Shown here in pieces: positions 1-3,000 of a stretch of 47,716 nucleotides of DNA (positions within the stretch are counted from its first letter, which is position 1; each line of letters starts with the position of its first letter). The stretch spans positions 1-47,716 of the IMG/VR virus record IMGVR_UViG_2925929528_000002. One strand, written 5' to 3'. The stretch comes from a virus. Taxonomy: Duplodnaviria > Heunggongvirae > Uroviricota > Caudoviricetes. The position numbers were made by a program.

Positions 1-3000
1 TCATATTACTGGATAATCATCATCATCCTTCCATATCCGGTTAATAACGAATGTCACTATTCCTAACACTACGACGTCGTCGAGTGCTTCACCTTCCAGC
101 GCCTCACCATCACGAGTAATAAACGCCTTCCCCATAACTTTCGCAAAATCTGTACCGCCGGAGTACTGGATCAATACCGTGTCCTGCTGCTTTGGTTTAG
201 AGGAGAAATCAATTACGGCATAACCAGTTTCAGTCTGTACGACCCTAGTATTAGGGCCGATGCTGCATAGCTTATCGACGGTTAACCGCCCCTCCACATA
301 GTCTGATGCTGGCGATGGAAATCCCACGATTACAGCCCTCCATTCGGGTTGTAAAGCTGGAACGTGCGATCGTCACCTTCCTGCGTTGAGACATCCCGGA
401 ATGTCGTCACATATTGCTCTATCCACTGGTTAGCCTGGCGCGGTGACCATATCCAGTTAACCTTTGCGAGTTCCCGGATAAAACCGGACGTTGTCACGGT
501 GCGACGGCCATTAGGCTCAATGACAATTGCCTGACGCCAGGCTATTTCGATATCTGAGTTTCGCGGCATAATTTCACCCCCTTAACTACTGTTTTTATAT
601 GGGTCTTCCCTTGTTGTGGTGGCTGAAGGCATGATAATGGTGTATTTAATCGCCAGAGGTCACCGCCATGGACGAAAAGTCCCTCTACGCTCATATTCTC
701 AACCTGTCCGATCCGTGGCAGGTAAAGTCCCTTTCTCTCGATGAAAATGCCGGTTCTGTTACTGTCACTATTGAGATCGCTGAAAACACCCGGCTAGCCT
801 GTCCGGCCTGCGGTAAATCCTGTTCTGTTCACGATCACCGTCATCGTAAATGGCGCCATCTTGATACCTGCCAGTTCACCACTATTGTTGAAGCCGATGT
901 TCCACGAATTATGTGTCCGGAGCATGGCTGTCAGACGTTGCCTGTTCCGTGGGCTGGCCCCGGAAGCCGGTATACGTTGCTGTTCGAATTGTTCGTTCTC
1001 TCATGGCTGAAAATCAGCACCGTTGATGCTGTCAGGAAGCAACTTAAGCTCAGCTGGAATGCGGTTGACGGCATTATGACCCGGGCAGTTAAGCGAGGTC
1101 TTGCCCGGATAAAAAAGCCATTATCCGCCCGTCATATGAATGTGGATGAGGTCGCCTTTAAAAAAGGACATCGTTACATAACGGTGATCTCCGATCGCGA
1201 TGGTCGGGCGCTGGCCTTAACGGATGATCGCGGCACAGAGAGTCTTGCCGGCTATCTTCGCACACTCACTGATGGGCAGTTGCTGGCTATCAAAACGCTC
1301 TCAATGGACATGAACGCGGGCTATATAAGAGCAGCGCGCATCCACTTACCCAGCGCGGTTGAGAAAATCGCCTTTGACCGCTTCCATGTGGCGAAGCAAC
1401 TGGGCGAGGTAGTTGATAAAACCCGTCAGAATGAACATCCGCACCTCCCTGTTGAAAGCCGACGCCAGGCAAAAGGAACCCGCTTCCTGTGGCAGTACAG
1501 TGATAAGTGGATGACTGAATCCCGGCAGGAAAAGCTGATGTGGCTGCGTGCACAGATGAAGCTGACGAGCCAGTGCTGGGCGCTGAAAGAGCTGGCAAAG
1601 GATATCTGGAACAGGCCATGGAGCGAGGAAAGGCGGAGTGACTGGCAGAGATGGCTGGCGCTGGCGGCTAACAGTGACGTTCCCATGATGAAAAATGCTG
1701 CGAAAACGATAGGAAAAAGGCTGTACGGGATCCTGAATGCGATGCGACACAGTGTCTCAAACGGAAATGCGGAGGCACTTAACAGCAAGATAAGGTTGCT
1801 GAGAATAAAAGCCAGGGGATACCGAAACCGGGAGCGCTTTAAACTGGGAGTGATGTTCCACTACGGTAAGCTGAATATGGAGTTCTGAGCCTTCCCACCA
1901 TGATCGGGGAAGACCCTTTTATATACAGTAGATTCATTGGGAGATCTGATCAATACAGGTTCCAGCTATCGATCAGGCGCACCGACGCAACATAATGATT
2001 ATTCAGAAGCAGGCAGGTACTTGTAGATAGTTTTCACGTCTACCCCTATCACATCGGCTACCTGCTGCCGGATTGCGCCCGTACCCAACATCCTGCGGCA
2101 TCGCTCCACAACCTCAGTGGTCATTACCCGGCGGCGGCCGCCTACTCTCCCCTGCTCCCTCGCTGCGGCTAAACCTGCGCGGGTACGCTCGACGATCAGC
2201 TCGCGCTCCATTTTTGCCAGGGCGCTCATGACGTGGAAGCAAAAGCGGCCTGCTGGCGTACTGGTATCGATGCTGTCGGTCAGACTGCGTACATGGACAC
2301 CATGGACTAGCCGAAACAACTTCCGCATGATTTCTTGTTAAAACTGCTTGACCGTAGAAAGAGCAACCCCTACTATTTTTAAAAATACCAATATGCTTTT
2401 TAATATTAGTTTTACCTCTATTTTATCATCCACACGAGCCATAACATGAAAGAGGAAACATTAATAAATGAACAAAAAGAAAGGTATAATCATCGCCCCG
2501 GGCCAAATAATTTCACGCCATGATGGATCAATGACATTTAATAAATTAGAAAGTTCCGACATCAACTTTCTTTTACTATATTGGGACAAAGTTGTTATAT
2601 CAACCAATAATATCTTACATCTTGAGGTTCCTCGAGAAAAAACACTAAGGGAATTAATGGCCGCAGATTTTCCTCGAGCTATAATTACGGAAGATGATTA
2701 CCCCAACGATGAAGGAAGAATACAAGAAAATTTATTTATAAAAGCACAATACAAAATAGCAGAAAAAATCAGCCAAGATGATCATGAGAAATTTGATTGG
2801 AGTTTAAATCAAATTAGTAACAGTCCTGACCTAGTCATTCCCGAGGCATATACAAAACAAGCACTTTTGTTAAAAATGGATTTTATGCAACTACTTCCAT
2901 CCCCAGGAAATCTTACAACCTATGAAGATGTATTAGAATTCAAGGAAAAAAGAGGTGATTTGCTAAATGAACTCCATTCGCATATTGAAGGAATCTGTAT

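What the first reader, a model, noticed from the sequence alone, without database searches (positions are those of the whole stretch)
593..1924. Complete ISL3-family IS with perfect 8-bp target site duplication
Terminal inverted repeats and identical TTTTATAT direct repeats on both sides indicate a simple insertion into AT-rich DNA with no later rearrangement. The insertion sits about 30 bp upstream of the start codon of ORF 330..569 and could disconnect or replace its promoter.
Basis: seen in the sequence. Interest (0 to 1): 0.35.

Follow-up and report, generated by a model that had tools for sequence, protein, structure and literature searches.

The report
ISKox3 inserted in a LexA operator
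The element is an intact copy of the known insertion sequence ISKox3, and it sits exactly in the middle of a LexA (SOS) operator. About 130 other copies of ISKox3 and its relatives do almost the same, so this group of jumping genes seems to home in on DNA-damage-response operators, which I could not find reported.

Summary
Window 601-1916 is an intact 1316-bp ISL3-family IS with a 406-aa transposase. It is 100% identical to E. coli copies annotated ISKox3 and is flanked by a perfect 8-bp duplication, TTTTATAT.

The target is not generic AT-rich DNA. Removing the IS and one repeat restores TACTGT-TTTTATAT-ACAGTA, a near-consensus LexA box. Intact versions of this box lie upstream of the same 79-aa gene in E. 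coli, Klebsiella, Raoultella, Siccibacter and Pantoea.

The conserved promoter (-35 TTGATC, 17 nt, -10 TACTGT) now lies on the far side of the IS. It is cut off from ORF79 and the UmuD'-like gene and has lost its operator.

This is a general pattern. Among 100 ISKox3 copies with 79 distinct left flanks, 73 have CTGT exactly 8 bp from the IS end and the other six are one mismatch away. The pooled flanks give TACTGTATATATAT|IS|ATATATATACAGTA. E. coli chromosomal copies sit in the dinD, tisB, sbmC and hokE boxes, three of them in both orientations. Relatives down to about 65% identity behave alike (ISCfr12, ISEc53, ISSoEn4 and unnamed Yersinia and Providencia elements), but one 49% and one 41% relative do not.

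The specificity is strong but not absolute: fimB and capsule genes are also hit. No paper in the searchable library links these IS to LexA.

The parts
601..1916 (+). ISKox3 (ISL3 family), intact, 1316 bp
   Evidence: 100% identical over its full length to E. coli copies annotated ISKox3. The boundaries are defined by the IRs and TSD.
601..622 (+). Left inverted repeat (IRL), GGGTCTTCCCTTGTTGTGGTGG
   Evidence: 10/10 at the tip and 17/22 overall against the reverse complement of 1895-1916.
1895..1916 (-). Right inverted repeat (IRR), GGGTCTTCCCCGATCATGGTGG when read inward
668..1888 (+). Transposase gene, 406 aa
   Evidence: Pfam Zn_ribbon_ISL3, HTH_Tnp_ISL3 and DDE_Tnp_ISL3. NCBIfam transpos_ISL3, 323 bits against a 180-bit cut-off.
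593..600 (.). Left copy of the target-site duplication TTTTATAT, which is the spacer of the LexA box
   Evidence: There is a single copy in the empty sites L001, L002 and L184.
1917..1924 (.). Right copy of the target-site duplication TTTTATAT
587..592 (.). LexA-box half-site TACTGT, on the gene-proximal side
   Evidence: The reconstructed site is TACTGTTTTTATATACAGTA, and an intact box is present in L001, L002 and L184.
1925..1930 (.). LexA-box half-site ACAGTA. Read on the minus strand it is TACTGT, the inferred -10 of the ORF79 promoter
1948..1953 (-). Inferred -35 hexamer TTGATC of the ORF79 promoter, now 1324 bp further from the gene
   Evidence: TTGATC or TTGCTC lies 17-18 nt upstream of TACTGT in 12 of 14 loci with ORF79 homologues, from E. 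coli to Pantoea. This is inferred from conservation. The consensus scan did not call it.
330..569 (-). ORF79, first gene of the disconnected SOS-box operon; function unknown
   Evidence: phrog_3893, E 1.4e-36. No Pfam, NCBIfam or PDB relative. Homologues are always preceded by a CTGT-N8-ACAG box.
1..327 (-). UmuD'-like protein of 108 aa that starts at the position of the UmuD cleavage site and lacks the SGDSM serine motif
   Evidence: phrog_3469 'UmuD-like', E 1.6e-49. It aligns to UmuD' residues 1-40 (PDB 1umu, E 3e-4), with TGYAV in place of SGDSM.
1999..2328 (-). Upstream neighbour: a 5'-truncated serine recombinase/invertase gene. This is context and not part of the IS
   Evidence: Pfam Resolvase positions 92-144 plus HTH_7. 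It is 85% identical to the C-terminal part of the full-length 182-aa gene in L002.

Best explanation
An intact, known insertion sequence (ISKox3, ISL3 family) has transposed into the centre of a LexA operator.

**The insertion.** Its DDE transposase made cuts staggered by 8 bp, exactly at the inner edges of the two half-sites (CTGT | 8 bp | ACAG). After repair the operator's 8-bp spacer, TTTTATAT, is present on both sides as the target-site duplication.

**The target.** The operator belonged to a two-gene accessory operon (ORF79 plus a UmuD'-like protein) at the end of a myovirus-type prophage.

**Targeting is a property of the element.** ISKox3 and its Enterobacterales relatives with GGGTCTTCCC termini (ISCfr12, ISEc53, ISSoEn4 and unnamed ones down to about 65% transposase identity) insert almost exclusively into CTGT-N8-ACAG boxes.

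**Most likely mechanism (inferred, about 55-60%).** The two-fold symmetric transposase-ends complex reads the two half-sites itself, just outside each strand-transfer position, and is helped by the flexible alternating A/T spacer. It has thus evolved to mimic LexA's specificity. LexA boxes make a good landing pad because they are multi-copy, non-essential and present on chromosomes, plasmids and phages.

**Consequences in this window.** It is shown that the operator is split and that neither junction regenerates a box. It is inferred that the conserved promoter (-35 at 1953-1948, -10 at 1930-1925, minus strand) is now LexA-free and 1324 bp further from ORF79. It fires antisense into the transposase gene. 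ORF79 and the UmuD'-like gene are therefore either silenced or expressed only by read-through, without SOS control.
For: - **Identity and anatomy:**
- **Operator and empty sites:** the reconstructed site is TACTGTTTTTATATACAGTA. Intact boxes with a single TTTTATAT are present in L001, L002 and L184.
- **Conserved box and promoter:** a CTGT-N8-ACAG box lies about 33-39 nt upstream of the start codon, with TTGATC/TTGCTC 17-18 nt further upstream, in 12 of 14 loci with ORF79 homologues. One of the two Citrobacter loci has its box at -61.
- **Generality for ISKox3:** 26 viral and 73 metagenomic copies plus the window give 79 distinct left flanks. Of these, 73 have CTGT at -12..-9 and the other six are one mismatch away (CTGG, CTGA, TTGT). 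On the right side, 31 of 34 flanks have ACAG at +9..+12. There are 22 distinct complete sites with a perfect TSD. The flank consensus is TACTGTATATATAT|IS|ATATATATACAGTA. Background CTGT frequency in the same loci is 0.0044 per position, giving P about 4e-164.
- **E. coli chromosomes (RefSeq):** copies sit in the boxes of dinD (both orientations), tisB (both), sbmC (both) and hokE, each with a perfect 8-bp TSD.
- **IncX3 blaNDM plasmids:** ISKox3 sits in the box of a homologous ORF79/S24 module.
- **Relatives:** ISCfr12, ISEc53 and unnamed elements of 71-73% identity, including four of four copies in one Yersinia genome, one of them upstream of dinI. Also Providencia (65%), ISSoEn4 next to uvrD, and a 66% element.
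- **Outgroups:** a 49% relative (five flanks) and a 41% relative show no such motif.
- **Orientation:** no bias, 14 against 11, as expected for a palindromic target.
- **Activity:** ISKox3 transposes in the laboratory and makes 8-bp AT-rich duplications (PMC12057282).
- **Terminators and promoters:** no intrinsic terminator is predicted on the minus strand inside the IS, and no outward promoter at IRL.
Against: - **Specificity is not absolute.** ISEc53 sits in fimB of ST131 at an (AT)n run with only a 5-bp repeat and no CTGT/ACAG (PMC3203889). Under selection ISKox3 inserts into capsule genes (wzi, wzc, wzy, a glycosyltransferase; PMC12057282, PMC11836320), and I could not inspect those flanks. 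One site has N10 spacing and a few have only one good half-site (L022, L023, L169).
- **LexA binding is not measured.** LexA binding to the ORF79 box is inferred from sequence and conservation.
- **The promoter is weakly supported by scanning.** It rests on conservation only. The consensus scan did not call it; my hand count gives 7 of 12 matches to consensus.
- **The recognition mode is unresolved.** Nothing computed here separates direct DNA read-out by the transposase from recognition of LexA-bound or LexA-bent DNA.
- **Sampling.** The viral and metagenomic samples are not de novo events, so some purifying selection has acted on them.
Confidence: 0.85

Rival explanations
1. LexA-guided targeting. 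The transposase complex does not read the DNA itself. It is recruited by the LexA dimer bound to the operator, or by the DNA bend LexA induces. Alternatively it gains access only when LexA has been cleaved, so that insertion is coupled to the SOS response.
For: The target consensus cannot be told apart from the LexA consensus over all 20 positions. The sites hit are genuine, strong LexA operators: dinD, tisB, sbmC, hokE, dinI and uvrD. The transposase has only the three standard ISL3 domains and no obvious extra DNA-reading module.
Against: - Integration occurs inside the protein's footprint, at the bases LexA contacts. Known protein-guided systems such as Tn7/TnsD and Ty3 insert beside the bound factor, not within it (established knowledge).
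- Sites with one poor half-site or N10 spacing are used, and these should bind the LexA dimer weakly.
- Off-target events occur at plain (AT)n runs.
- None of these points is decisive.
Confidence: 0.2
2. Survivorship. ISKox3 inserts at random into AT-rich octamers, and only the copies in harmless places such as SOS boxes persist in natural genomes.
For: Laboratory selections recover insertions in coding regions of capsule genes, so other sites can be used. Standing copies have passed through selection.
Against: - Neutral AT-rich intergenic DNA is far more abundant than LexA boxes, yet all 79 distinct left flanks are within one mismatch of CTGT at exactly -12..-9.
- The register never slips.
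- The same boxes are hit independently in both orientations.
- Four of four copies in one Yersinia genome are in boxes.
- A 49% relative in another host shows ordinary A/T-rich targets without the motif.
Confidence: 0.03
3. In this window the hit on a LexA box is a one-off coincidence of an ordinary AT-rich-seeking IS.
For: ISL3-family elements are generally described as making 8-bp duplications in AT-rich DNA (family knowledge). The spacer TTTTATAT is AT-rich.
Against: Same data as above. The window holds only one other CTGT-N8-ACAG with an AT-rich spacer, at 38660, so the chance of landing in register in such a box is about 1e-5 per insertion.
Confidence: 0.02

Closest known systems
ISKox3 and the ISL3 family (ISfinder nomenclature; PGAP 'ISL3-like element ISKox3 family')
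   Same: The element is 1316 bp with a single 406-aa DDE transposase carrying a Zn ribbon and an HTH. It has imperfect terminal IRs of about 22 bp starting with GG, and an 8-bp TSD. It is 100% identical to annotated ISKox3 copies.
   Different: The element itself does not differ. What has not been described for it, in the 81 papers of the held library that mention ISKox3 (0 of which mention LexA), is the near-exclusive use of LexA operators as targets.
IS10/Tn10 symmetric hot-spot selection (NGCTNAGCN)
   Same: A DDE transposase prefers a two-fold symmetric target whose symmetry axis coincides with the centre of the staggered cut.
   Different: In IS10 the specific bases lie inside the 9-bp duplication and the preference is moderate. 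Here the specific bases (CTGT/ACAG) lie outside the 8-bp duplication, the preference is about 92-100% in natural copies, and the motif coincides with a global regulator's operator.
IS that target repeated host or mobile-element sequences: IS1397/ISKpn1 (REP/BIME), IS4321/IS5075 (Tn21-family IRs), Tn5053/Tn402 'res hunters', Tn7 at attTn7
   Same: These are site-selective transposition into a conserved, multi-copy or safe sequence, which gives low-cost insertion and access to plasmids.
   Different: The transposase families and targets differ. To my knowledge none of them targets a transcription-factor operator. This comparison is recalled from established literature and was not tested here.
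fimB::ISL3-like insertion of E. coli ST131 and Nissle 1917 (PMC3203889)
   Same: It is the same clade (ISEc53, 90% transposase identity, same termini) and is an IS-mediated regulatory change fixed in a successful clone.
   Different: It is an off-target event: there is no CTGT/ACAG, only a 5-bp repeat, and the element is 1885 bp because it carries a ClbS/DfsB-family passenger gene.

Membership tests
ISL3 family insertion sequence | Transposase with a DDE_Tnp_ISL3 catalytic domain, about 400-440 aa | tested here: met
   PF01610, E 5.9e-56. NF033550 equivalog, 323 bits against a 180-bit cut-off.
ISL3 family insertion sequence | N-terminal zinc ribbon and HTH typical of the family | tested here: met
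   PF14690 and PF13542 are both above their gathering scores.
ISL3 family insertion sequence | Imperfect terminal inverted repeats beginning with GG | tested here: met
   GGGTCTTCCC is 10/10 at both tips and 17/22 overall.
ISL3 family insertion sequence | 8-bp target-site duplication | tested here: met
   TTTTATAT is present twice and once in the empty sites.
ISKox3 (same IS: at least 95% nucleotide identity to the reference) | Nucleotide identity to the ISfinder reference sequence | not testable with these tools
   ISfinder is not available. As a proxy, the element is 100% identical to five RefSeq copies and 98.4% identical to the IncX3-plasmid copies, all named ISKox3 by PGAP.
LexA operator (gammaproteobacterial SOS box) | Palindrome CTGT-N8-ACAG (CTG-N10-CAG) with an A/T-rich spacer | tested here: met
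   The reconstructed site is TACTGTTTTTATATACAGTA, 18/20 to TACTGTATATATATACAGTA. The motif definition is in PMC2994835.
LexA operator (gammaproteobacterial SOS box) | Position in or overlapping a promoter, conserved across orthologous loci | tested here: met
   A box is present upstream in 13 of 14 loci with ORF79 homologues (L005 has only a degenerate one). In 12 of them it lies 33-39 nt upstream of the start codon, with -35 TTGATC/TTGCTC 17-18 nt upstream of the TACTGT half-site.
LexA operator (gammaproteobacterial SOS box) | Binding by LexA and damage-inducible expression of the downstream gene | not testable with these tools
   This needs EMSA, ChIP or reporter assays. In gene orientation the ORF79 box has the same sequence as the box upstream of sbmC in E. 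coli. It also matches the umuDC operator as I recall it, which is memory and not a test.
Site-specific (target-selective) IS | The same sequence motif in the same register at independent insertion sites, far above chance | tested here: met
   73 of 79 distinct ISKox3 left flanks and 31 of 34 right flanks carry the motif, P about 4e-164. About 20 of 21 sites of relatives do as well.
Site-specific (target-selective) IS | Preference shown for unselected de novo transposition events | not tested
   Only standing natural copies were analysed. The published laboratory events were selected for capsule loss, and their flanks are not given.

The most novel reading that the evidence does not exclude
ISKox3-clade transposases are guided to their targets by the host SOS repressor itself. 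They would recognise LexA-bound or LexA-bent operators, or operators just vacated during SOS induction. That would make this a bacterial IS whose integration is directed by a global transcription factor and coupled to DNA damage. Each insertion would remove LexA control from one SOS gene, for example tisB, sbmC, dinD or plasmid umuD-like genes.
Probability: 0.2. Interest if true: 0.9.

Novelty: new variant of a known kind. Interest (0 to 1): 0.72.

Why it matters
- **Wide distribution.** ISKox3 and its relatives are in about a third of complete E. coli genomes. They also ride on the IncX3 blaNDM plasmids found across Enterobacterales.
- **Predictable effects on the SOS regulon.** If these IS home to LexA operators, every new host receives an element that specifically uncouples SOS genes from their repressor or promoter. 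Affected genes include toxins linked to persistence (tisB, hokE), a gyrase inhibitor (sbmC), translesion-polymerase accessory genes on plasmids, and prophage SOS modules. That would make IS-driven change in the DNA-damage response predictable and testable in clinical lineages.
- **A clean model for transposition biology.** It offers strong, symmetric target selection by an ISL3 transposase whose specificity copies that of a host repressor. The question of direct or LexA-assisted read-out can be settled with simple genetics.
- **A natural probe for LexA boxes.** The IS flanks mark LexA boxes. In this window they flag the uncharacterised ORF79/UmuD'-like pair as an SOS-controlled module shared by prophages and IncX3 plasmids.

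Tried and rejected
- **Promoter scan.** The sigma-70 consensus scan on an empty-site locus and on the window called no minus-strand promoter upstream of ORF79. The promoter assignment therefore rests on conservation.
- **Function of the disconnected genes.** Pfam and NCBIfam gave nothing for ORF79 and only a weak N-terminal HumD/UmuD match for the 108-aa protein. A PDB sequence search gave no credible relative for ORF79. Their function stays unknown.
- **Source genome.** Megablast of the flanks found no E. coli genome or plasmid better than 96.5% over 653 bp. The phage collection gave only partial matches of 75-92% to Klebsiella and Citrobacter phages.
- **Laboratory insertion sites.** I looked for the flanks of laboratory ISKox3 insertions in capsule genes. 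The papers give only the duplicated octamers or gene positions, and no supplement is held.
- **CTGT/ACAG as part of the element.** Rejected. The spacers differ between sites and are duplicated each time, and the boxes exist intact in genomes without the IS.
- **Spread of one ancestral insertion by recombination.** Rejected. There are more than 40 distinct flank/TSD combinations, with both orientations at dinD, tisB and sbmC.
- **Hybrid promoter or restored half-operator.** Neither IS end regenerates a LexA half-site (the box would read GGGT in place of ACAG), and no good -35 lies at the right distance (and by eye).
- **Literature.** Ten searches found no paper linking ISKox3, ISEc53, ISCfr12, ISSoEn4 or ISL3 with LexA or SOS-box targeting. 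Subscription-only papers and ISfinder notes could not be checked.
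Full report
**1.

The sequence shows TTTTATAT at 593-600 and again at 1917-1924. 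These repeats directly flank a 1316-bp element at 601-1916. The element's tips are inverted repeats: GGGTCTTCCC is 10/10 identical, and 17 of the first 22 positions match. TTTTATAT occurs only three times in the whole window.

The only long ORF is 668-1888 on the plus strand, encoding 406 aa. It has the three ISL3 transposase domains and passes NCBI's ISL3 equivalog model at 323 bits against a 180-bit cut-off. The whole element is 100% identical to five E. coli RefSeq copies annotated as ISKox3, and it is related to copies in 1711 of 5426 complete E. coli genomes. It is therefore an intact copy of a catalogued IS. The ISfinder reference itself could not be consulted.

**2. The target is a LexA operator**

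The inverted-repeat search extended beyond the IS into the flanks: CTACTGT...ACAGTAG. Deleting the IS and one repeat gives TACTGT-TTTTATAT-ACAGTA. This matches the gammaproteobacterial SOS-box palindrome (CTG-N10-CAG; PMC2994835) at 18 of 20 positions of TACTGTATATATATACAGTA.

A reconstructed empty site found contiguous matches across the insertion point in E. coli chromosomes. L001 (96.5% identical) and L002 carry the intact box with a single TTTTATAT. K. pneumoniae locus L184 does too. The insertion is therefore simple and unrearranged, and its duplication is exactly the operator's spacer.

**3. What the operator controls**

Downstream on the minus strand lie two genes.

- **ORF79 (330-569).** It belongs to phrog_3893 and has no known function.
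- **A 108-aa protein (1-327).** It belongs to the PHROG 'UmuD-like' family and aligns to UmuD' from its first residue. The catalytic SGDSM motif is replaced by TGYAV.

The window as a whole is a myovirus-type prophage, with tail sheath, large terminase, major head protein and CI/CII-like regulators. Its nearest relatives are Klebsiella and Citrobacter phages. The two genes sit at one end of it, next to a 5'-truncated invertase gene (1999-2328).

Twelve further loci encode ORF79 homologues of 44-82% identity, from Raoultella, Klebsiella, Citrobacter, Siccibacter and Pantoea. Of the 14 loci compared, 12 have a CTGT-N8-ACAG box 33-39 nt upstream of the start codon. The two Citrobacter loci differ: L006 has its box at -61 and L005 has only a degenerate box.

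In the same 12 loci, TTGATC or TTGCTC lies 17-18 nt upstream of the TACTGT half-site. I read this as a promoter with -35 TTGATC and -10 TACTGT, overlapped by the operator. This is an inference from conservation, because the simple consensus scan did not call it.

**4. Consequence in the window**

In gene orientation the order is now: -35 (1953-1948), -10 (1930-1925), spacer copy, IS entered at its right end, spacer copy, ACAGTA, ribosome-binding site, ORF79.

- **Shown.** The operator is split and neither junction regenerates a box.
- **Inferred.** The promoter has lost LexA control and is 1324 bp further from its genes. It transcribes antisense to the transposase gene.

No outward promoter is predicted at the IS end facing ORF79, and no intrinsic terminator is predicted on the minus strand inside the IS. 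ORF79 and the UmuD'-like gene are therefore either silent or expressed weakly by read-through, without SOS regulation.

**5. This is the rule for ISKox3**

A scan of viral contigs for the exact left end returned 26 copies. All 26 have (T)ACTGT followed by 8 nt directly before the IS. Every copy with both ends present has 8 nt followed by ACAG or ACAT after it. A metagenome scan added 73 copies.

| Measure, pooled with the window | Result |
|---|---|
| Copies | 100 |
| Distinct left flanks | 79 |
| Left flanks with CTGT at -12..-9 | 73 of 79 |
| The other six left flanks | CTGG, CTGA or TTGT |
| Distinct right flanks with ACAG at +9..+12 | 31 of 34 |
| Distinct complete sites with a perfect 8-bp duplication | 22 |

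The flank consensus is TACTGTATATATAT|IS|ATATATATACAGTA. CTGT occurs at 0.44% of positions in the same loci, which gives P of about 4e-164.

In annotated E. coli chromosomes the copies sit in the boxes of dinD, tisB, sbmC and hokE. Each has a perfect duplication, and dinD, tisB and sbmC are hit in both orientations in different strains, so these were independent events.

The 'umuD-ISKox3' arrangement often drawn for IncX3 blaNDM plasmids (24 papers) is the same architecture as this window. It runs S24-like gene, 79-aa gene (64% identical to ORF79), box AGCTGT-ATGCATAT-ACAGTA occupied by ISKox3, then a recombinase gene.

The orthologous ORF79 box has been hit independently elsewhere. L017 has the opposite orientation, the right flanks of L050 and L087 resemble the window's, and L024 and others occupy the Pantoea-type box. 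There is no orientation bias relative to the adjacent gene, 14 against 11, which fits a palindromic target.

**6. How far the property extends**

Transposase relatives form a continuous series from 100% to about 63% identity in Enterobacterales, followed by a gap down to 49% or less.

| Element | Transposase identity | Sites seen |
|---|---|---|
| ISCfr12 | 91% | In a box with TSD |
| ISEc53 | 90% | In boxes; 1885 bp with a ClbS/DfsB passenger gene |
| Unnamed elements | 71-73% | In boxes |
| Yersinia sp. KBS0713 element | 73% | Four of four copies in boxes, one upstream of dinI |
| E. coli element (P0047) | 71% | Upstream of a 79-aa and S24 gene pair; N10 spacing |
| ISSoEn4 (Sodalis) | 71% | Beside uvrD, plus a second copy |
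| Unnamed element (P0056) | 66% | In a box |
| Providencia element | 65% | One full box and one half box |

All of these share GGG(T/A)CTTCCC termini.

Outside this group the motif disappears. A 49% relative with different termini in a GC-rich host (five distinct flanks) and a 41% relative show no such motif. A single Salinivibrio element of 42% identity sits in TTGT-N8-ACAG. With only one copy this cannot be judged.

**7. Limits**

The preference is strong but not absolute.

- ISEc53 interrupts fimB in ST131 at an (AT)n run with only a 5-bp repeat and no half-sites. This insertion was described in 2011 without comment on targets (PMC3203889).
- In laboratory selections ISKox3 inserts into capsule genes (PMC12057282, PMC11836320). 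The flanks of those events are not available.
- LexA binding to the ORF79 box has not been measured.

**8. Mechanism**

Shown: an 8-bp staggered insertion positioned exactly between the two half-sites, in either orientation.

Inferred, as my preferred reading (about 55-60%): the symmetric transposase-ends complex reads CTGT and ACAG directly, just outside each strand-transfer position. The bendable alternating A/T spacer would help. Three points favour this reading.

- Integration is inside the LexA footprint, not beside it.
- Sites with one poor half-site or odd spacing are used.
- Plain (AT)n runs are occasional off-targets.

The main rival (about 20%) is recognition of LexA-bound or LexA-shaped DNA, or access only after LexA cleavage. 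The data here cannot exclude it, because the target logo equals the LexA logo. Survivorship of random insertions is not credible given the fixed register and the abundance of other neutral AT-rich DNA.

**9. Novelty**

The element is already known. The target preference appears not to be.

- None of the 81 papers mentioning ISKox3 mentions LexA.
- The eight papers that mention both ISL3 and LexA do so incidentally.
- Searches combining SOS box or LexA box with insertion sequences, or with ISEc53, ISCfr12 or ISSoEn4, found nothing relevant.

Subscription-only literature and ISfinder comments could not be checked. I rate it a new variant of a known kind: target-selective transposition by a known IS family, aimed at a global repressor's operator.

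Noticed in passing
window 38660-38679: A second near-consensus box, TACTGTACATATAAACAGTG, is unoccupied. It lies inside the coding region of the CI-like repressor gene (38451-39146), in the linker between the HTH and the S24 domain. It is a potential ISKox3 target. Whether it binds LexA is unknown.
   Followed up: partly
window 1999-4045: The invertase gene is truncated at 2328 and followed by a low-GC block (33-41% GC). That block holds an ORF of unknown function (2468-3349, phrog_23128) and a second, truncated UmuD'-like N-terminal fragment (3869-4045, phrog_3469). This looks like the remains of an earlier replacement or duplication of the same module next to the tail-fibre gene (4404-7610).
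   Followed up: partly
L183 3064-4975 and L184 3064-4975 (K. pneumoniae, next to lepA): A group II intron (ltrA) is inserted between the intact LexA box and the ribosome-binding site of the ORF79 homologue. It is a second kind of mobile element in the same 5' leader, one or two bases from the box edge.
   Followed up: partly
L156 565-2449, L157, L191 1165-3049; L161 1065-2748: ISEc53 is an 1885-bp relative that carries a ClbS/DfsB-family gene (related to colibactin self-protection) between IRL and the transposase gene. Another relative, L161, is 1684 bp with about 370 extra bases. These are SOS-box-seeking IS with passenger DNA.
   Followed up: partly
L158 (IncX3 pNDM5 plasmid) 801-3472: The 'umuD' next to ISKox3 on IncX3 blaNDM plasmids is not a true umuD. 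It is an S24-like gene preceded by a 79-aa ORF79 homologue (64% identical), giving the same SOS-box module as at the end of this prophage. It is cut on its other side by IS26.
   Followed up: yes
L019, L050, L052, L054, L062, L065, L068-L070, L084, L087, L091: These ISKox3 copies have flanks that are halves of two different LexA boxes, with no matching duplication. They are either recombination between IS copies sitting in different boxes or metagenome assembly chimeras across the repeat.
   Followed up: no
L159 1107-2439 (Salinivibrio proteolyticus plasmid): A distant ISL3 element (42% transposase identity, GGCTCTTCA termini) sits in ATTTGT-AAATGCAT-ACAGGT, a LexA-like site with one mismatch. 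It is a single copy, so it is unclear whether targeting extends to Vibrionaceae elements.
   Followed up: partly
window 7713-9041 and 45000-47716: These are low-GC segments (32-36% GC) in a prophage of about 54% GC. A 442-aa ORF on the opposite strand beside the tail-fibre gene has no PHROG match. The terminal 350-aa ORF (46664-47716), which I had assumed to be an integrase, also has no PHROG match.
   Followed up: no
proteins P0075 and P0083: Two database proteins join an ISL3 transposase C-terminal part to GspL or to a hydrogenase cytochrome b subunit. They are probably gene-calling artefacts across IS junctions.
   Followed up: no
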